From the NCBI GenBank assembly GCA_900316235.1, contig ONCC01000012.1:15469-79468 (forward strand): DNA of 64,000 bases, read 5' to 3'. Shown here one piece after another: positions 14,087 through 64,000 of this stretch. Each line of letters opens with the position of its first letter. The first letter of the stretch is position 1. The DNA comes from an uncultured Bacteroidales bacterium. GTDB taxonomy: Bacteria; Bacteroidota; Bacteroidia; Bacteroidales; P3. The position numbers and the translations under genes are program-made. The notes beneath the pieces are model-generated. The model had not been told where the DNA came from. It worked only from the letters and a program-made list of their open reading frames with translations, and searched no databases.

Positions 14087-14749
14087 ATGACAGAATTTGA
14101 GAAATACGCCACAAAGCATCGTGGTATCAGCAGCACGACTTACGCCAAGTATACGTCGGCCATCAATAACTCGCTGACCCCCTATATCGTTGAGGAGCGT
14201 CAGCTCAATGTGGCTCAGATGGACGTCTTCAGCCGTCTGATGATGGACCGCATCATCTTCCTCGGCACCGCCATCGACGACTATACGGCCAACGTCATCC
14301 AGGCCCAGTTGCTCTTCCTCGAGAGCGTGGATCCCACCAAGGACATCCAGATTTACCTCAATTCGCCGGGAGGCTCCGTCTATGCTGGCCTCGGCATCTA
14401 CGACACCATGCAGTACATCCAGCCTAAGGTGAGCACCATCTGTACCGGCTTGGCTGCCTCGATGGCCTCCGTGCTGCTCTGCGCCGGCGAGAAAGGCCGC
14501 CGCTGCGCCCTGCCGCATGCCCGCGTGATGATTCATCAGCCCATGGGCGGTGCTGACGGTCAGGCTACCGACATGGAGATCACCGTCCGCGAGATTCTCA
14601 AGCTCAAGAAGGAGCTCTACGAGATCATCGCCAAGCACAGCGGCCAGCCCTTCGAGCAGGTGGAGAAAGACAGCGACCGCGACCACTGGTTCACCGCCGA
14701 AGAGGCACTGAAATACGGCATGATTGACGAAGTGCTGACAAAAAAGTAG
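14087..14749 (+). CDS. clpP: ATP-dependent Clp protease proteolytic subunit
   Basis: RIIFLGTAIDD, GLAASMASVLL (Ser) and MIHQPMGG (His) are ClpP catalytic blocks. Confidence 0.95.
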   Translation: MTEFEKYATKHRGISSTTYAKYTSAINNSLTPYIVEERQLNVAQMDVFSRLMMDRIIFLGTAIDDYTANVIQAQLLFLESVDPTKDIQIYLNSPGGSVYAGLGIYDTMQYIQPKVSTICTGLAASMASVLLCAGEKGRRCALPHARVMIHQPMGGADGQATDMEITVREILKLKKELYEIIAKHSGQPFEQVEKDSDRDHWFTAEEALKYGMIDEVLTKK

Positions 14750-15196: not shown

Positions 15197-15217
15197 GCAA
15201 AGATGGCCACCATTTTA

Positions 15218-15248
15218 ACCGCGCATGATATCCATGTGCGGTTTTTTG
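15218..15248 (+). terminator. intrinsic terminator after dut
   Basis: ACCGCGCATG-ATATC-CATGTGCGGT (10 bp including one G-U pair) followed by TTTTTTG. Confidence 0.7.
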
Positions 15249-15268
15249 TTAAAGTTTGTACCCCCGAT

Positions 15269-15301
15269 GTAAGATTATCGGCATAATATGAGTATTATAT
15301 T
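15269..15301 (+). promoter_or_regulatory. conserved bipartite motif GTAAGATT-N16-TATTATATT upstream of sigma paralog 1
   Basis: The same two boxes with an identical 16-nt spacer occur at 39431-39463 and 63477-63509, each directly upstream of a paralogous sigma gene. Confidence 0.6.
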
Positions 15302-15304
15302 GGT

Positions 15305-15823
15305 ATGACGCACAGAAACGACATACAAGACACCGCCGCAGACTTTGAAATCATGCTGCACCGTCGACAGACTGACCTTTGGCGACTCTGTCTGCGTCAG
15401 GCTTGGGGCAACACCGAGCAGGCCCGTGACCTGATGCAGGAGTCGATACTGGCGTTGCTCCGCGTCGATGCACGTCGGCGTCACGATGTAACCGATGCCG
15501 AGGAGCGCTCGTGGGTGCTGCTGGTGGCACGCACGGCCATCAGCAACCTCCGACGGAAACACCGTGTGGAGACGGTACCCCTTGACGAAAGCTGGGCACT
15601 GCCTGCTGAAGACAACGACGACAAAGCCCGCGAACTGCTCGACGAGATGCGTGTCCATTTGTCGGAGGCCGACCAACAGCTATTGCAGCTCTATCGCGAC
15701 GGCTTCGCCGTAAAAGACATTGCCGTGATACTTTCCATCACTGCCGATGCCGCCAGCGTGCGACTCCATCGACTCACCGAACGGCTGCGCACAATATATA
15801 ATGACAACTATAAATCCAGATAG
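15305..15823 (+). CDS. sigma-70 family (ECF-type, regions 2 and 4) RNA polymerase sigma factor, paralog 1
   Basis: 172 aa. Region-2-like DLWRLCLRQA...LMQESILALL...SWVLLVARTAISNLRR. Region-4 HTH LLQLYRDGFAVKDIAVILSITADAASVRLHRL. Confidence 0.8.
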   Translation: MTHRNDIQDTAADFEIMLHRRQTDLWRLCLRQAWGNTEQARDLMQESILALLRVDARRRHDVTDAEERSWVLLVARTAISNLRRKHRVETVPLDESWALPAEDNDDKARELLDEMRVHLSEADQQLLQLYRDGFAVKDIAVILSITADAASVRLHRLTERLRTIYNDNYKSR

Positions 15824-15825
15824 CC

Positions 15826-16104
15826 ATGAAATTCGAAGACATTGAACATTACATGCACGAGGAGCACCTGCGAAACGAGGCCGCAAAGTTCACCGCTGAC
15901 CTGATGCACTCGCAAGAGGCTCGTCGGGCCTTGCACCGTGCCCGGCTGCAGCGGGCCGTGGCGGCCTGCTTCCTGCTAGGCGTGATTACCCTGACATCCT
16001 TGGCTTTCATGCCTGCACCCCGTTACGACTATGCCTATGGCACCCACGCCGAAGCAGCCTCATCAGTATGTGACAGTGTCCAACAAATATATTCCATGCT
16101 ATGA
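15826..16104 (+). CDS. small single-TM protein (anti-sigma-like topology), hypothetical
   Basis: 92 aa. Basic N-part (RRALHRARLQR), one TM helix (AVAACFLLGVITLTSLAF), ~30 aa tail. 2-nt gap after the sigma gene and ATGA overlap with the next gene. Positional counterpart at 39961. Confidence 0.5.
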   Translation: MKFEDIEHYMHEEHLRNEAAKFTADLMHSQEARRALHRARLQRAVAACFLLGVITLTSLAFMPAPRYDYAYGTHAEAASSVCDSVQQIYSML

Positions 16105-16601
16105 AACACGCTATCTCTGTCTTGTTGTTTTTAGCAATGCTGTGCGTTGGCGGTGTGGCGACGGTTAGGTATTGGCCCCGTCTCTTCCCGTCGGACGAGA
16201 CCAGCGTCCTCTTCCGCCGCTACGAAAATGCTGATGGCATTGAGGCCGACTTCGTGCGCCGCATGCGTTTCGACAACGGCCAGCGCATCGACATCACCCT
16301 GCTCCACGCCACCGATAGTGTAGCATGGGACAAACTGAAATGCGATCTGAATATCCAGGAACAGCCTGTCGAGGCATTGCGACGTCTGGGAGTCGAGCCT
16401 GCCGACATTCACCTGCGCTATTCCACCCGCCAACACCCCGAGCGGGCCATCACCATCGTCGACTTCGATGTCTACGACTGTGTGGCCGTATGCTACAGTC
16501 GCCGCCTGGTATGTGTGTTCCATATCGATACCAAGGAGCAGATGGAAACCATGTTCTCCGAGGTGGCAAACAACCATATGAATCAAGTTTTCAATCATTA
16601 A
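16101..16601 (+). CDS. N-terminally anchored protein of unassigned family (paralog of 40227..40700)
   Basis: 166 aa. One TM helix, then shared blocks VLFRRYENADGIEADF...RIDITLLHATDSVAWDKL...VCVFHIDTKEQ, versus EVFLRYRDADGVRVAF...RTDVTLLKAQDSVTWAGL...VGVFHVETLAQQ in the paralog. Confidence 0.55.
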   Translation: MKHAISVLLFLAMLCVGGVATVRYWPRLFPSDETSVLFRRYENADGIEADFVRRMRFDNGQRIDITLLHATDSVAWDKLKCDLNIQEQPVEALRRLGVEPADIHLRYSTRQHPERAITIVDFDVYDCVAVCYSRRLVCVFHIDTKEQMETMFSEVANNHMNQVFNH

Positions 16602-16614
16602 ATACTTAACATCA

Positions 16615-17088
16615 ATGAAACAAATTGTCAAAATGCTGCTTCTCGCAGCCATGCTGTTCCCCCTCGGCTGCACAGCCGAAACCACCGAAGGTAAACCTAG
16701 CGGCAAGAGCGCCCTGGTGGGCACCGAATGGGTCTATCACTATGAAGGTAACGACACTATTATGGACCAGGTTTTCACTAATGTGGGAGATTACATACTG
16801 CAGTTCCTCACCGACAGCACAGGTCTCTATTTAGTGGATACTTACGTCATCATCAATGGTGTCTCGCAGAACAGCAATAACCAGATGGGCATAAAATACA
16901 CTTTTGACGGTCACAGCGGCGTCATCAAATACATCTTCCCCGAGGGAACACCTTCCTATGTGCGCGCCAGCATGCCGCCACAGAAATTCGTCTACGATGC
17001 CAAGAAGCAGGAACTCATCTGGGTAAACTTACTTGACCCCACATGGGAGAAAAAGCACGGCAAGATGATTTTCCGCCCCAAAAAGTAA
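16615..17088 (+). CDS. hypothetical lipoprotein
   Basis: 157 aa with lipobox LFPLGC; no recognisable domain. Confidence 0.5.
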   Translation: MKQIVKMLLLAAMLFPLGCTAETTEGKPSGKSALVGTEWVYHYEGNDTIMDQVFTNVGDYILQFLTDSTGLYLVDTYVIINGVSQNSNNQMGIKYTFDGHSGVIKYIFPEGTPSYVRASMPPQKFVYDAKKQELIWVNLLDPTWEKKHGKMIFRPKK

Positions 17089-39070: not shown

Positions 39071-39190
39071 AAACTCCTACTTTGCACCTACCAAAACCCT
39101 ACCAACTCCTTACCAACTCCTACCACGGTAGGAGATAATAGGTCGTTCATTAAGTTAAAATACGACGTTTTAACATTTATTAGGAAAGTT
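39071..39190. repeat. CCTACC-decamer/palindrome intergenic repeat element, copy C
   Basis: Gapless 108/120 match to 27191-27310. Contains the perfect inverted repeat CTCCTACC-AC-GGTAGGAG. Confidence 0.85.
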
Positions 39191-39430
39191 TACCCTGCGT
39201 CTACCGCAGCCCTGACATCCCTGCCGGCGGAGGTGAAATTTCTGTTAAAATTGGGTTGAAATGTTAAACTTTCTTAAAATTTCAGGGCAGAAATGTATTT
39301 TCAGGGCACTTTTTGCTTTATATACGGTGATGAACAGCTCTGCAGGAAGCTCGAGCAGCTTGTCGGACGGCATTGCGCCTACGCGCTGGGGCCAAAAGTG
39401 TGTTAAAAAAAGTTAAAACGAGTGTATCTT

Positions 39431-39463
39431 GTAAGATTCGGGGTAAAAAAAGTCTATTATATT
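39431..39463 (+). promoter_or_regulatory. conserved bipartite motif GTAAGATT-N16-TATTATATT upstream of sigma paralog 2
   Basis: Identical boxes and spacing to 15269-15301; ATG is 21 nt downstream. Confidence 0.6.
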
Positions 39464-39484: not shown

Positions 39485-39964
39485 ATGACCGAGGAATCAA
39501 AATACACATCCCTTCTGCGCCGCCACCGGAAACTTGTCTGGAGGCTGTGCCTGAGATATGCGAGGTACGACAGTGACCGCTGTGTCGACATGGTGCAGGA
39601 GGTCAGTATCGCACTATGGGAACGCTTCGGTCGTCTGCGAGCCAATGCGAGCACGCTTGAAGAGAAAGCCTGGGTGTATTGGAACACACGCGATATCCTC
39701 GGCAGGATGCAGCATCAACGACGGTTTGACACGGTTCCAATCAACGAATGGATGGAAGACACCCTTGCCGATGAGCGCGACGGGGGCAATGACTGTCTAG
39801 AGGACTTGCTTTCCAGACTGACTGAAGAGGACAGGACATTGGTAAAACAATGGCTCGACGGCTATAAGGCTGAAGAGATAGGGGAAATGACGGGGATGAC
39901 TCGCAACAATGTATACCAAAGAATGTTTCGCATCATACAGAAATTAAAAAAAATAAATCCATGA
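39485..39964 (+). CDS. sigma-70 family (ECF-type) RNA polymerase sigma factor, paralog 2
   Basis: 159 aa with LVWRLCLRYA, MVQEVSIALWERF and EEKAWVYWNTRDILGRM. Region-4 HTH EEIGEMTGMTRNNVYQRMFRI. Confidence 0.8.
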   Translation: MTEESKYTSLLRRHRKLVWRLCLRYARYDSDRCVDMVQEVSIALWERFGRLRANASTLEEKAWVYWNTRDILGRMQHQRRFDTVPINEWMEDTLADERDGGNDCLEDLLSRLTEEDRTLVKQWLDGYKAEEIGEMTGMTRNNVYQRMFRIIQKLKKINP

Positions 39965-40230
39965 AAAACAAAAAAACAGAACTCATGGATCGCCTGCTGG
40001 GTTTCGACAGTAGGGAGTTCAAAAGACAGATGGTTGAGGGACTCGACGAGTGGATTGGCCGTCGCAAGGAGGCTTCTCTCACGCGGCGTCTCTGTGTGCC
40101 AGTGCTATGCGCCACACTGCTGATGGTGACGGTGACTTATCTTGCGACGCCCGTTCTCAACTATCGCCTCGGCGACGGCATGTCCTACGAGACGGTGACG
40201 GAAAAGACTGACAATCTGATTTCATTATGA
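39961..40230 (+). CDS. small single-TM protein (anti-sigma-like topology), hypothetical
   Basis: 89 aa. Basic segment GRRKEASLTRR, TM helix LCVPVLCATLLMVTVTYLA, short tail. ATGA overlaps on both sides. Confidence 0.5.
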   Translation: MKNKKTELMDRLLGFDSREFKRQMVEGLDEWIGRRKEASLTRRLCVPVLCATLLMVTVTYLATPVLNYRLGDGMSYETVTEKTDNLISL

Positions 40231-40700
40231 AGAAAAGGCACTACATAGCCCTGTCTATCGTCCTTGCTGGTCTTGCAGTCTGTTTGTGGATAGCTCTCCA
40301 TCCACGGCAGTTGCCCTATGACCAGTGTAGCGAGGTGTTCCTTCGCTATAGGGATGCTGATGGTGTCAGGGTAGCCTTTCTTAAAGATTTTCCGGTTGAC
40401 GACTCGGTGAGGACGGATGTCACTCTGCTTAAGGCGCAGGACTCGGTCACATGGGCCGGGCTGATTGTGGCACTCTGCCACAACGGGAACATCAACGACT
40501 TCCTTCCGGGGAAAGTGTTCTTCAAACCTGTTCCAAAAGATGATTCCCGCTCGACGAATCAAGAGGAGTCCATAAACGAATATATCATTGTCGCTTACCG
40601 TCCAGACCTTACCGTCGGCGTGTTCCATGTGGAGACTCTCGCACAGCAAAAGTCAATCATTGACAAATACATTAATTCATTAATAACAAAAAACATATAA
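40227..40700 (+). CDS. N-terminally anchored protein of unassigned family (paralog of 16101..16601)
   Basis: 157 aa. See the shared blocks listed for 16101..16601. Confidence 0.55.
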   Translation: MKKRHYIALSIVLAGLAVCLWIALHPRQLPYDQCSEVFLRYRDADGVRVAFLKDFPVDDSVRTDVTLLKAQDSVTWAGLIVALCHNGNINDFLPGKVFFKPVPKDDSRSTNQEESINEYIIVAYRPDLTVGVFHVETLAQQKSIIDKYINSLITKNI

Positions 40701-40702
40701 TT

Positions 40703-41683
40703 ATGAAAAAGTTTCTTTTGTTGCTGGCTTTGCTGCCGGCGCTGACGGGATGGTCGCAAGACACCGTTTCGAATCCCTACGGTCGGGGATATTTCACCAA
40801 CAACATTCCCGATACGACCTCGTCCGCCTACTCCGTCGGTTGGGTTCCAACTTGCGGTGCCTCATGCGGGGTTGTGGCCAAGGAGATGTCGACCTCGCAG
40901 ACATTGAGGATATACGGCATTGCGGCCTGCATGATGTCCGATAGGGATGCGCTATATCTTCCGGAATCCCTCAGCGAAGAAGAACGACAGGAGTGGCTTG
41001 ATAATTTTTATTCAAATTTTATCGACACCTCGGCAGATGAACTGTACGAATATCTGGGTATATACCTGAGTGACGGCGACACCGCACTGGTGCCCCAGCG
41101 AGAGGTAATGATACAATGGGGGGTCGACACTCCGGCCTACTATGTCGCAACGGGGCTGTATATGTGGGGAGGGCCTAATACCACGTACCCCATGTATGAG
41201 AAGTTTTTCGACTCCGGCTACGTGGCCGTCTCGGATTATTTCTATGTGGGAGTGACGCAGCGTTCCTGCGTTGGAACCTTTGGAACGCAAGCCCACATGG
41301 GATTGAGTTTGATGCGAATGAGTGGCAGAGCGTGCGAAAAAAGCCCGGAGTACCACGTCAAAAAGATGTGCTGGCCTGAAGATGGCTATGTGTACTGGAA
41401 CTGGGACCCGCGGGTGTCAATGATTACCTACGACCACTACCTGATTTTCCCGATCCTGGCTCCCGACGACTATCCTTGGGACACCTCGGGGGTGGGCGGC
41501 GACACACTGGCGGTGACGCAGGCCGACATGGTGGCACGTTATACCTCGGTGCAGCCTAATCCCGCCACGGAACAGGCCCGTGTGCTGTCGAGTTTCGGGC
41601 TGTCCCACATCGAGGCTTACAACGCCGGCGGGCAGAAGGTCTACCCCGCGGTACCTACCTCCTCCGCATCACCACCCCCTTAG
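40703..41683 (+). CDS. secreted protein whose T9SS C-terminal sorting domain is interrupted; the last CTD strands are encoded in another frame up to 41715 (possible pseudogene or sequencing error)
   Basis: Signal peptide ends GWS-Q. The CTD begins VQPNPATEQARVLSSFGLSHIEAYNAGGQKVY, then reads PAVPTSSASPPP*. Frame 1 from 41650 reads GTYLLRITTPLGTVTKKLLVQ*. Confidence 0.6.
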   Translation: MKKFLLLLALLPALTGWSQDTVSNPYGRGYFTNNIPDTTSSAYSVGWVPTCGASCGVVAKEMSTSQTLRIYGIAACMMSDRDALYLPESLSEEERQEWLDNFYSNFIDTSADELYEYLGIYLSDGDTALVPQREVMIQWGVDTPAYYVATGLYMWGGPNTTYPMYEKFFDSGYVAVSDYFYVGVTQRSCVGTFGTQAHMGLSLMRMSGRACEKSPEYHVKKMCWPEDGYVYWNWDPRVSMITYDHYLIFPILAPDDYPWDTSGVGGDTLAVTQADMVARYTSVQPNPATEQARVLSSFGLSHIEAYNAGGQKVYPAVPTSSASPPP

Positions 41684-63428: not shown

Positions 63429-63456
63429 GAGCCAATCGTCAAGGTTGGCTCTTTTT
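63429..63456 (+). terminator. intrinsic terminator
   Basis: GAGCCAA-TCGTCAAGG-TTGGCTC followed by TTTTTG. Confidence 0.7.
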
Positions 63457-63476
63457 GTAAAAAAATATGTCTTAAT

Positions 63477-63509
63477 GTCAGATTTTGGCTAAAAAGAGGG
63501 TATTATATT
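63477..63509 (+). promoter_or_regulatory. conserved bipartite motif GTCAGATT-N16-TATTATATT upstream of sigma paralog 3
   Basis: Same geometry as 15269-15301 and 39431-39463; ATG is 5 nt downstream. Confidence 0.6.
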
Positions 63510-63514
63510 GGTAG

Positions 63515-64000
63515 ATGGACCGACAAAGTAGATACACCGAATTGTTGAAGCGTCACCTCCCGATGGTGTGGCGTGGGTGCTGGGTACGGGCGAGGGGCAA
63601 CTACGAGCGCTGCCGCGACCTGGTGCAGGAGGTCTCCATCGCCCTCTGGCTGCATCTCGACCAGCTGCGCACGGACGTCTCTCCCAAAGAGGAGAAGGCA
63701 TGGGTGTGGTGGATGACACGTACCACTCTCGACCACCTGCACCGCAGTCAGCAACTTCCCCTGCAGGCACTGACGGAAGCGATAGCCGAGACCATCCCCG
63801 ATGCCGACAATAGCGCCGTGGAGGAGGATATCGAAGAACTGATGGCAGCCCTCAGCCCTGAGGAGCAACAGTTGGTGCGGCTGCACATTGAAGGCTACCG
63901 TGCCGACGAGATAGCGGAGACCCTGGGCCTCGGGCGCGATACCGTCTATCAGCGCATGCACCGCGCCCTGGGGAAGGCCCGCAAGGTGTTGCTGGTATTG
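63515..64000 (+). CDS. sigma-70 family (ECF-type) sigma factor, paralog 3; 3' end outside the window
   Basis: Not in the ORF track because no stop codon is reached. Frame 2 from ATG 63515 reads MDRQSRYTELLKRHLPMVWRGCWVRA...LVQEVSIALWLHL...EEKAWVWWMTRTTLDHL...EIAETLGLGRDTVYQRMHRALGKARK. Confidence 0.75.
   Translation, partial: MDRQSRYTELLKRHLPMVWRGCWVRARGNYERCRDLVQEVSIALWLHLDQLRTDVSPKEEKAWVWWMTRTTLDHLHRSQQLPLQALTEAIAETIPDADNSAVEEDIEELMAALSPEEQQLVRLHIEGYRADEIAETLGLGRDTVYQRMHRALGKARKVLLVL

What the first reader, a model, noticed from the sequence alone, without database searches (positions are those of the whole stretch)
15269..15301. Identical bipartite motif GT(A/C)AGATT-N16-TATTATATT in front of all three sigma paralogs
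Hand alignment shows the same two boxes with exactly 16 nt between them at 15269-15301, 39431-39463 and 63477-63509. Each sits immediately upstream of one of the paralogous sigma genes, and the surrounding sequence is otherwise unrelated. The motif does not match the housekeeping Bacteroidota TTTG/TAnnTTTG promoter seen in front of many other genes here, so autoregulation by these sigmas or a shared regulator is the natural reading.

If TATTAT is treated as a -10 hexamer, the predicted +1 falls as follows:
- Copy 1: exactly on the A of the ATG.
- Copy 3: 2 nt before the ATG.
- Copy 2: 18 nt before the ATG.

Copies 1 and 3 would therefore be leaderless or near-leaderless mRNAs.
Basis: seen in the sequence. 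Interest (0 to 1): 0.65.

Follow-up and report, generated by a model that had tools for sequence, protein, structure and literature searches.

The report
Shared promoter of rumen sigma-factor family
The three identical two-box motifs are real and are copies of a strongly conserved promoter-like signal that, in uncultured rumen Bacteroidales, sits in front of a large family of ECF-type sigma factor genes and of surface-protein genes; it most likely lets these sigma factors switch on themselves, each other and a common gene set.

Summary
GTMAGATT-N16-TATTATATT occurs exactly three times in the window, 0.02 are expected by chance, and each copy lies directly before one ECF-type sigma gene. The sigma proteins are only 26-32% identical, so the motif is kept by selection and is not left over from a duplication.

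Related rumen Bacteroidales sequences (611 kb) hold 101 unique sites. All with readable downstream sequence point at a gene: 59 at family sigma genes and 42 at genes for secreted or surface proteins. In a sample of family sigma genes collected without using the motif, 41 of 61 carry it within 130 nt and 7 more at the operon head.

The refined consensus is TGTMAGATTt-N-tGnGTATTATAT, then a pyrimidine-A step 7 nt after TATTAT. The start codon never lies upstream of that A and is usually 0-5 nt after it. No conserved RNA structure, Rfam family, sigma-A box or sigma-54 box explains the motif.

The best reading is an ECF-type -35/-10 promoter used by this sigma family, giving leaderless or near-leaderless mRNAs. 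The start site and the cognate sigma are untested. Only assembled metatranscriptome contigs were available, and some of them cross the motif.

The parts
15268..15301 (+). Motif copy 1: TGTAAGATT (15268-15276), 16-nt spacer, TATTATATT (15293-15301). The predicted +1 is 15305, the A of the ATG.
39430..39463 (+). Motif copy 2: TGTAAGATT, 16-nt spacer containing an A-tract, TATTATATT. The predicted +1 is 39467, 18 nt before the ATG.
63476..63509 (+). Motif copy 3: TGTCAGATT, 16-nt spacer containing an A-tract, TATTATATT. The predicted +1 is 63513, 2 nt before the ATG. This copy is the closest of the three to the family consensus (67.7 bits).
15305..15823 (+). ECF-type sigma paralog 1 (172 aa).
   Evidence: Pfam Sigma70_r2 and r4_2 give weak matches; TIGR02937 scores at its cut-off. 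The family HMM gives E = 8e-62.
39485..39964 (+). ECF-type sigma paralog 2 (159 aa).
63515..64000 (+). ECF-type sigma paralog 3, cut by the window end after 162 aa just as a hydrophobic segment begins. Its closest relatives (L124, about 94% identical; L074; L084) are 372-380 aa proteins: sigma domain, one transmembrane helix, then an extracytoplasmic tail.
15826..16104 (+). A 92-aa protein with one hydrophobic segment, adjacent to the stop of sigma 1. It is a candidate anti-sigma or membrane partner. This role is inferred.
   Evidence: No family match.
16101..16601 (+). A 166-aa protein with an N-terminal hydrophobic segment; third gene of the cassette. It is 29% identical to its copy-2 counterpart.
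16615..17088 (+). A 157-aa lipoprotein-like gene in the copy-1 operon. It is distantly related (26% identity, E = 4e-5) to a class of about 135-aa lipoproteins that carry their own motif copy in other genomes.
39961..40230 (+). An 89-aa protein with one hydrophobic segment, overlapping the stop of sigma 2 (ATGA).
40227..40700 (+). A 157-aa protein with an N-terminal hydrophobic segment; third gene of the cassette. The same three-gene order is found in L001, L002 and L004.
15217..15249 (+). Terminator-like hairpin and T-run of the upstream gene. Only about 55 nt remain before the sigma 1 ATG for a promoter. The T-run lies at the conserved position upstream of box 1.
63429..63456 (+). Hairpin GAGCCAA...TTGGCTC followed by TTTTT, downstream of the preceding gene and about 20 nt before motif copy 3. 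It was seen by eye; its loop is too long for the scanning tool.

Best explanation
The motif is the core promoter of a lineage-specific regulon in uncultured rumen and gut Bacteroidales. RNA polymerase carrying a member of this ECF-type sigma family reads it.

TGTMAGATT acts as the -35 element. tGnGTATTATAT acts as the -10 element. Transcription starts at the conserved A 7 nt after TATTAT.

The same promoter stands before many diverged paralogs and before genes for BspA-type leucine-rich-repeat proteins, CarboxypepD_reg-like proteins and small lipoproteins. An activated family member would therefore raise its own level, raise its paralogs, and turn on a shared set of surface proteins.

For most of the sigma genes the resulting mRNA has a 0-5 nt leader. 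In the window this means leaderless for copy 1, a 2-nt leader for copy 3 and an 18-nt leader for copy 2.

Shown: the element, its conservation, its geometry, its orientation, the genes it precedes, and its link to the family. Inferred: that it is a promoter, where transcription starts, and which sigma reads it.
For: 1. Three exact copies in the window against 0.02 expected, before proteins only 26-32% identical.
2. Homologs of sigma 2 at 55-57% identity keep the boxes and the 16-nt gap.
3. In 611 kb of related loci there are 101 unique sites with at most 2 mismatches. Every site with readable downstream sequence points at an ORF; one lies at a locus end. 59 precede family sigma genes and 42 precede other genes. 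About 2e-4 sites are expected by chance (my estimate).
4. In the sample collected without using the motif, 41 of 61 family sigma genes have it within 130 nt. Seven more have it at the head of the operon, before an upstream gene.
5. Bases that no search pattern required are conserved: T before GT, G three bases before TATTAT in 80 of 80 sites, G one base before it in 73 of 80, a pyrimidine at +6 in 66 of 80 and A at +7 in 55 of 80.
6. The true ATG is never closer than 4 nt to TATTATAT. At 4 nt the ATG starts at the predicted +1. The distance is 4-9 nt in 26 of 41 sigma genes, about 30 nt for the lipoproteins and 41-45 nt for the leucine-rich-repeat proteins. The last two give ordinary leader lengths.
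7. Copy 1 lies about 25 nt after a terminator-like hairpin, and no other conserved element fits in that gap.
8. There is no consensus RNA structure: RNAalifold predicts none, the median folding z-score is 0, and there is no Rfam match.
9. Published work: about half of ECF sigmas autoregulate, they need near-consensus promoters, and their promoters are found as over-represented two-block motifs with 15-18 bp gaps upstream of clustered sigma genes (PMC7776599).
Against: - No transcription start has been mapped.
- Metatranscriptome contigs run across the motif: for copy 2 from about 39365 in two samples, for a copy-3 relative, and at L139 from 2462. Read-through, a second upstream promoter or DNA carry-over could explain these (continuous intergenic cover). 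They also fit a start upstream of the motif.
- 13 of 86 non-redundant sites have a perfect sigma-A box (TAnnTTTG) ending 9-10 nt before box 1. That box would place a start just before the motif.
- The boxes differ from the usual ECF consensus, which has AAC in the -35 and CGT in the -10.
- Sigma 1 has a different region-4 helix (AASVRLHR against AVYQRMHR) but the same -35 box.
- I found no co-variation between sigma residues and box variants.
Confidence: 0.58

Rival explanations
1. The motif is a promoter, but one master factor reads it rather than the adjacent paralogs. The master could be a single family member, a distant relative expressed from a sigma-A promoter, or another alternative sigma. 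The sigma paralogs would then be targets and not autoregulators.
For: Paralogs only 26-32% identical share one promoter, which is unusual if each reads its own. Sigma 1 has a divergent region-4 helix but the same -35 box. Distant relatives (L141, L151, L198) sit behind canonical TAnnTTTG boxes, close to motif-bearing genes.
Against: The motif was found only in loci and genomes that carry the family, and it sits before two thirds of its members. Autoregulation is the common case for ECF sigmas. No candidate master was identified.
Confidence: 0.2
2. The motif lies inside the 5' leader of transcripts that start further upstream, for example at the sigma-A box found before some copies. It would be a binding site on RNA or DNA for a regulator acting after initiation or as a repressor.
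For: RNA-run contigs include the motif at copy 2, at a copy-3 relative and at L139. A perfect TAnnTTTG lies at a fixed place before box 1 in 13 of 86 sites. A small clade has a 9-bp inverted repeat around box 1 with two compensatory changes.
Against: - Two thirds of the sites have no sigma-A-like box upstream. Copy 1 has only about 25 nt between a terminator and box 1.
- There is no conserved RNA structure.
- Two unlike boxes at a fixed 16-nt gap, the conserved pyrimidine-A step, and the hard limit of the ATG at the predicted +1 are promoter features.
- The inverted repeat is not general: stem lengths match the control.
- The RNA runs that show cover also cover intergenic DNA evenly, which suggests DNA carry-over.
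Confidence: 0.15
3. The three copies are chance AT-rich matches, or remnants of a recent duplication or mobile cassette, and have no function.
For: The boxes are AT-rich. The scan of the genome collection also returned about 90 unrelated hits in AT-rich genomes.
Against: 0.02 copies are expected in the window. The flanks and the proteins have diverged far beyond the boxes. About 100 independent sites are conserved across many metagenome-assembled genomes, always before genes.
Confidence: 0.01

Closest known systems
Autoregulated ECF (group 4) sigma promoters, such as E. coli rpoE P2 and B. subtilis PW/PX (consensus TGAAAC-N16-CGTA and TGTAAC-N17-CGAC, from my own knowledge), and the two-block motifs mined upstream of clustered ECF genes (PMC7776599)
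   Same: Two unlike blocks with a fixed gap in the 15-18 bp range, directly upstream of the sigma operon. They are near-invariant, as expected for sigmas that melt DNA poorly. The same motif stands before a small regulon of envelope proteins. TGTAAG resembles TGTAAC, and GnGTAT resembles CGTA.
   Different: The -35 lacks the AAC core, with AAG or CAG in its place. The -10 continues into an AT-rich TATTATAT. The spacer is partly conserved (GG, an A-tract, tGnG). One motif serves many deeply diverged paralogs in one genome, where the usual case is one promoter type per sigma. Most transcripts would have a 0-5 nt leader.
Bacteroidota housekeeping sigma-A promoter (-33 TTTG, -7 TAnnTTTG; PMC7366714)
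   Same: Same phylum and the same position before genes. Some motif copies have a true TAnnTTTG box 9-10 nt upstream, so these genes may have two promoters.
   Different: The conserved boxes do not contain TTTG at the -7 position. TATTATAT matches TAnnTTTG only in TA plus one T. The bases after TATTATAT vary.
Sigma factors fused to a membrane-spanning C-terminal extension (IutY of P. putida, ECF243; SCO4117, ECF52; PMC8999054)
   Same: 39 of 61 family members are 300-400 aa proteins: sigma domain, one transmembrane helix, then an extracytoplasmic part. Eight are longer, and some of these carry BspA-type leucine-rich repeats (LRR_5). Release by proteolysis is the known way such fusions are activated.
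   Different: No anti-sigma or zinc-finger domain was detected between region 4 and the membrane helix. The phylum and the ectodomains differ. The window's copies 1 and 2 are unfused and are followed by separate small membrane proteins.
Promoter motif 2 (PM2) of Bacteroides thetaiotaomicron (PMC7366714)
   Same: A non-canonical Bacteroides promoter with boxes near -10 and -30, thought to belong to an alternative sigma.
   Different: PM2 is described as near-palindromic and linked to oxidative-stress genes. The motif here is not palindromic. The PM2 sequence is given only in a figure, so I could not compare it base by base.

Membership tests
ECF (group 4) sigma-70 family, for the three downstream genes | Sigma regions 2 and 4 present; regions 1 and 3 absent; length about 160-200 aa | tested here: met
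   Pfam Sigma70_r2 and Sigma70_r4_2 match all three, weakly for paralog 1. TIGR02937 (sigma70-ECF) scores 42.9, 69.4 and 71.6 bits against a cut-off of 42.9.
A named ECF group or NCBIfam equivalog | Score above the curated cut-off of a specific subfamily model | tested here: not met
   The best specific models (PG0214/GFO_1088, TIGR02985, TIGR02989 and others) score far below their cut-offs. The ECF Hub group models were not available.
Autoregulated ECF promoter | Over-represented two-block motif with a fixed 15-18 bp gap upstream of the sigma gene or its operon | tested here: met
Autoregulated ECF promoter | Typical ECF consensus: AAC in the -35 block and CGT in the -10 block | tested here: not met
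   The -35 block is TGT(C/A)AGATT and the -10 block is GnGTATTATAT. They resemble the consensus but are not identical to it.
Autoregulated ECF promoter | Transcription start 6-8 nt after the -10 block | tested here: inconclusive
   Only assembled contigs of metatranscriptomes were available and they do not resolve 5' ends. Indirect support comes from the conserved pyrimidine-A step and from the ATG never lying upstream of it.
Autoregulated ECF promoter | Transcription depends on the cognate sigma | not testable with these tools
   This needs reporter assays or in vitro transcription.
Bacteroidota sigma-A promoter | TAnnTTTG at -7, with or without TTTG at -33 | tested here: not met
   The motif itself has no TTTG at the required place. 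A separate TAnnTTTG lies upstream of box 1 in only 13 of 86 sites.
Sigma-54 promoter | GG at -24 and GC at -12, both invariant | tested here: not met
   The spacer GG is present in only about 70% of sites, and the base after the invariant G region is T, not C.
Structured RNA leader or riboswitch | Conserved secondary structure with covariation, or a match to a curated RNA family | tested here: not met
   RNAalifold predicts no structure on 78 non-redundant sites and the median z-score is 0. The only Rfam matches in the window are five tRNAs.
Leaderless mRNA | Primary 5' end at the A of the start codon | not testable with these tools
   Predicted for copy 1 and for a minority of family sigma genes (distance 4; 1 of 41 in the motif-blind sample, plus sites such as L106 and L139). 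No 5' end data exist.
Sigma/anti-sigma fusion (IutY or ECF52 type) | C-terminal extension with a transmembrane helix and an extracytoplasmic domain | tested here: met
   Met for relatives of copy 3 (L074, L084, L124: 372-380 aa; L113, L122, L191: about 800 aa with LRR_5). In the window the protein is cut at the start of the helix.
Sigma/anti-sigma fusion (IutY or ECF52 type) | A recognisable anti-sigma domain or zinc finger between sigma and the membrane helix | tested here: not met
   The hydrophobic segment follows region 4 directly, and Pfam finds no anti-sigma domain.

The most novel reading that the evidence does not exclude
A many-sensors, one-regulon circuit. Each genome of this rumen Bacteroidales lineage would carry many ECF-type sigma factors, most tethered to the membrane by a helix directly after region 4 and bearing different ectodomains. 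All would read one and the same promoter. That promoter drives every paralog and a shared set of BspA-like and other surface proteins. Most of the sigma mRNAs would be leaderless or nearly so. Any one sensor firing would then prime all the others. This runs against the usual picture of mutually insulated ECF sigma-promoter pairs.
Probability: 0.3. Interest if true: 0.75.

Novelty: new variant of a known kind. Interest (0 to 1): 0.55.

Why it matters
ECF sigma factors are usually described as insulated pairs of one sigma and one promoter type. Here one near-invariant promoter serves many paralogs that share only a quarter to a third of their residues. It also serves the surface proteins they probably control.

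If the reading is right, three things follow:
- It gives a ready-made signal for predicting a regulon in abundant, uncultured rumen bacteria.
- It points to a cross-activating network of membrane-tethered sigma factors.
- It provides a set of natural leaderless mRNAs in a phylum whose translation start signals are unusual.

The motif is also a practical marker. A single pattern search retrieves the family's operons from metagenomes with almost no false hits once the leading GT is required.

Tried and rejected
1. TSS mapping from public RNA runs. All 4 run searches and 7 of the 8 read-laying runs were used. Only assembled contigs were available, at a depth of 2-17. Contig ends carrying adapters turned out not to mark known transcript ends: the end at 14724 lies inside the preceding gene. 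Some runs labelled as metatranscriptomes cover intergenic DNA evenly. I therefore treat this evidence as inconclusive.

2. RNA structure. RNAalifold and per-sequence z-scores gave nothing, and Rfam gave nothing.

3. A general inverted repeat around box 1. The idea came from copy 1 (CCGAT...ATCGG) and from a clade with 9-bp arms. A control that pairs the flanks of different sites gave the same stem-length distribution, so the repeat is limited to that clade.

4. The sigma-A reading of the upstream T-run. A G follows the T-run in only about a third of sites.

5. The sigma-54 reading. Rejected on the non-invariant GG and the missing GC.

6. Homology between the 89-aa protein downstream of sigma 2 and the membrane region of the fused sigmas. 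BLAST finds no alignment.

7. A DUF6383 tail in the fused sigmas. Pfam does not detect it, although it is present in the leucine-rich-repeat target proteins.

8. Co-variation between box-2 variants (TATTGTAT, TAATGTAT) and sigma clades. The variants cluster in one sigma clade. They also occur before a target gene next to a sigma that has the canonical box, so this gives no usable signal.

9. Literature search for the motif string. No relevant paper.

10. The first protein word-search found only 4 relatives. The family was reached through DNA-pattern and alignment-based locus searches instead.

Full report
**Observation**

The pattern GTMAGATT-N16-TATTATATT is present at 15269-15301, 39431-39463 and 63477-63509 on the + strand without mismatch. 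No further match appears when up to 2 mismatches are allowed. Dinucleotide-preserving shuffles expect 0.02 matches.

Each copy lies just before an ATG that opens an ECF-type sigma gene: 15305-15823 (172 aa), 39485-39964 (159 aa), and 63515 to the window end (at least 162 aa). Pfam finds sigma regions 2 and 4 in all three. TIGR02937 reaches its cut-off. No specific subfamily model does.

The three proteins are 26-32% identical. Outside the boxes the upstream DNA does not align. The identity of the boxes is therefore maintained by selection.

**Gene context in the window**

Copies 1 and 2 head the same cassette. The sigma gene is followed by a protein of about 90 aa with one hydrophobic segment. 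Its start abuts or overlaps the sigma stop codon. Next comes a protein of about 160 aa with an N-terminal hydrophobic segment; the two versions are 29% identical. Homologs of sigma 2 elsewhere have the same cassette.

Copy 1 sits about 25 nt after a terminator-like hairpin and T-run at 15217-15249. Copy 3 follows a similar hairpin that I saw by eye.

Copy 3 is cut by the window end exactly where its relatives begin a transmembrane helix.

The organism is an uncultured Bacteroidales bacterium of the bovine rumen. L106, from ruminal_MAG_50, carries a near-identical copy 1.

**The motif in other genomes**

The 55-57% identical homologs of sigma 2 carry TAAGATT-N16-TATTATAT upstream.

About 90 were unrelated hits in AT-rich genomes. 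The 24 hits preceded by GT in Bacteroidales were all from rumen or gut metagenome-assembled genomes, and two further GT-preceded hits were chance matches in other taxa.

A motif-blind search for family sigma genes in metagenomes gave 79 loci.

I scanned all 611 kb of these Bacteroidales loci for TGTMAGATT-N16-TATTATAT with at most 2 mismatches. This gave 101 unique sites, 86 of them non-redundant. By my estimate about 2e-4 are expected by chance. Every site with readable downstream sequence points at an ORF; one lies at a locus end.

- 59 sites precede family sigma genes.
- 42 sites precede other genes, which fall into these classes:
  - CarboxypepD_reg-like proteins of about 430 aa and about 230 aa;
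  - secreted proteins of about 600 aa with BspA-type leucine-rich repeats (LRR_5) and a DUF6383 tail;
  - lipoproteins of about 135 aa and about 300 aa.

The window's lipoprotein-like gene at 16615-17088 is a distant relative of the 135-aa class.

In the motif-blind sample of 61 distinct family sigma genes:

- 41 have the motif within 130 nt upstream.
- 7 have it further upstream on the same strand, where the sigma gene follows another gene. This other gene is often the 230-aa one.
- 13 have neither. A few of these have degenerate versions or a 15-nt gap. Several are distant relatives with canonical TAnnTTTG boxes.

A weight matrix trained without the window finds only the three reported sites in the window. 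So in these 64 kb the motif marks only sigma genes, while in the lineage it marks a regulon.

**Anatomy of the element**

On 80 non-redundant sites the consensus is T-G-T-(C/A)-A-G-A-T-T-t-n-g-g-n-n-a-a-a-a-a-n-t-G-g-G-T-A-T-T-A-T-A-T-t-n-n-y-A.

Several conserved positions were not required by any search pattern:

- the T before GT;
- the G three bases before TATTAT (80 of 80);
- the G one base before TATTAT (73 of 80);
- a pyrimidine six bases after TATTAT (66 of 80);
- an A seven bases after TATTAT (55 of 80).

Upstream, a T-run ends about 11 nt before box 1 and is followed by a C-rich stretch.

The spacer has an A-tract in 57 of 86 sites. A clade instead has a 9-bp inverted repeat around box 1. 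A cross-pairing control shows that this repeat is not a general property.

The distance from the end of TATTATAT to the true ATG is never below 4 nt. At 4 nt the ATG begins at the predicted +1. The distance is 4-9 nt in 26 of 41 sigma genes, about 30 nt for the lipoproteins, and 41-45 or 77 nt for the leucine-rich-repeat proteins.

**What it most likely is**

These are the properties of a core promoter for an alternative sigma factor:

- two unlike blocks with a fixed gap;
- strict orientation towards a gene;
- location at operon heads, in some cases back to back for divergent genes (L139, L142, L143);
- an extended G-containing -10 region;
- a pyrimidine-purine step at the expected start;
- a hard lower limit on the position of the start codon.

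This way of finding ECF promoters is established: an over-represented two-block motif upstream of clustered sigma genes. About half of ECF sigmas autoregulate, and they need near-consensus promoters (PMC7776599). That need fits the extreme conservation seen here. From my own knowledge, TGTAAG-N17-GGTA resembles the B. subtilis sigma-X and sigma-W consensus (TGTAAC-N17-CGAC and TGAAAC-N16-CGTA).

I therefore read TGTMAGATT as the -35 element, tGnGTATTATAT as the -10 element, and the conserved A as +1. The family's own sigma factors are the likely readers. That gives auto-activation and cross-activation plus a shared regulon of surface proteins.

The mRNAs of most family sigma genes would have 0-5 nt leaders. 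In B. thetaiotaomicron only about 3.7% of 5' UTRs are shorter than 10 nt (PMC7366714), so this would be a notable cluster of such mRNAs.

**What speaks against it, and the rivals**

No start site is mapped. Only assembled contigs of rumen metatranscriptomes were available. They show that the operons are present in RNA libraries at low depth.

Several contigs cross the motif:

- Copy 1 is covered at about the depth expected from read-through of its roughly 100x upstream neighbour.
- Copy 2 is covered from about 39365 in two samples.
- A copy-3 relative is covered with 98 nt of upstream sequence.
- L139 is covered from 2462 in one run, but continuously across the intergenic region in others, which points to DNA carry-over.

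A perfect sigma-A box (TAnnTTTG) ends 9-10 nt before box 1 in 13 of 86 sites. Some genes may therefore have a second, housekeeping promoter whose transcripts carry the motif in their leader.

This keeps a leader-element reading alive. It cannot explain the two thirds of sites that lack such a box. It also does not fit the missing RNA structure or the promoter-like geometry.

A master-factor reading is harder to exclude. One promoter for paralogs this diverged is unusual, and sigma 1 has a different region-4 helix. I found no usable co-variation between sigma residues and box variants.

Sigma-54, sigma-A, chance and a duplication remnant are rejected.

**The sigma family**

39 of the 61 sampled members are 300-400 aa and 8 are longer. 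In these the sigma domain is followed directly by a hydrophobic helix and an extracytoplasmic part. In the roughly 800-aa forms that part contains BspA-type LRR_5 repeats. LRR_5 is the same domain family as in one class of target genes.

No anti-sigma domain is detected between region 4 and the helix.

The closest described cases are sigma/anti-sigma fusions released by proteolysis: IutY, and ECF52 SCO4117 (PMC8999054).

The window's copies 1 and 2 are the unfused form. Copy 3 is the N-terminal part of a fused form.

**Novelty and verdict**

I found no paper that holds the motif. No curated family names these sigmas.

The kind of element, an autoregulated ECF promoter, is well known. Three things are new:

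- the specific consensus;
- its use by a large expansion of diverged and mostly membrane-tethered paralogs together with their likely targets;
- the very short leaders.

That the element is functional and selected is near certain. That it is a promoter is likely (about 0.8 when the master-factor variant is included). That the adjacent family reads it is plausible (about 0.58). The leaderless starts are a prediction with indirect support.

Noticed in passing
63515-64000; L124, L074, L084, L113, L122, L191: Sigma paralog 3 is only the N-terminal part of a protein. Its relatives are 372-380 aa: sigma domain, one transmembrane helix, then an extracytoplasmic tail. Other family members reach about 800 aa with BspA-type LRR_5 repeats outside the membrane. 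No anti-sigma domain is detected between sigma and the helix.
   Followed up: partly
L084 (- strand, sigma start about 5909), L096 (+, 2143), L074 (-, 6222), L133, L134, L137, L138: In one clade box 1 sits inside a 9-bp inverted repeat: CACCTCCGA ... TCGGAGGTG, or CACATCCAA ... TTGGATGTG. The two versions differ by two compensatory changes. The repeat is not a general feature of the motif, and its purpose is unknown.
   Followed up: partly
L070, L072, L133, L139, L142, L168, L177 and others; in the window a near-match TAAAGTTTG at 15251-15259: A perfect housekeeping-type box (TAnnTTTG, mostly TATTTTTG) ends 9-10 nt before box 1 in 13 of 86 sites. This suggests a second promoter whose transcripts would begin at the motif.
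   Followed up: partly
39396-39420; L001 2925-2935; L002 about 300-325; L004 about 83-90 and 187-193; L199: One or two GTTAAA boxes lie 13-24 nt upstream of box 1 in copy 2 and its unfused relatives. A single one is at 15250-15255 before copy 1. They could be a site for another regulator or an UP-like element.
   Followed up: no
39102-39202 and 39325-39372: In an intergenic stretch without an Rfam match, one run shows about 630x depth at 39102-39202. A 48-nt segment at 39325-39372 is shared with a much more abundant transcript that continues differently after 39372. This may be a small RNA or a repeated element.
   Followed up: no
L008, L020, L031, L044, L048, L054, L060, L064, L091, L112: The genome scan also picked up a nearly identical roughly 85-nt sequence (gttgcaacgagaAAGATTTGTGATATAAT...TATTATAattcaacgatgggattgagataaaatgg) in many Clostridia and Acutalibacteraceae metagenome-assembled genomes. 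It is a conserved element unrelated to the finding.
   Followed up: no
L139 2387-2496; L142; L143: Two motif copies stand back to back, 44 nt apart, driving a family sigma gene in one direction and a lipoprotein gene of about 135 aa in the other.
   Followed up: partly
40239-41337: In one metatranscriptome, contig depth rises along the copy-2 operon from about 5 over the sigma gene, to 12 over the 157-aa gene, to 28-32 over the 326-aa gene. This hints at internal promoters or at different mRNA stability.
   Followed up: no
L183, L184, L190, L191, L194, L200; L167, L175: Box-2 variants TATTGTAT and TAATGTAT are concentrated before one sigma clade (N-terminus ...SMCRDASHG...). TATTGTAT also occurs before a leucine-rich-repeat protein gene next to a sigma that has the canonical box.
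   Followed up: partly
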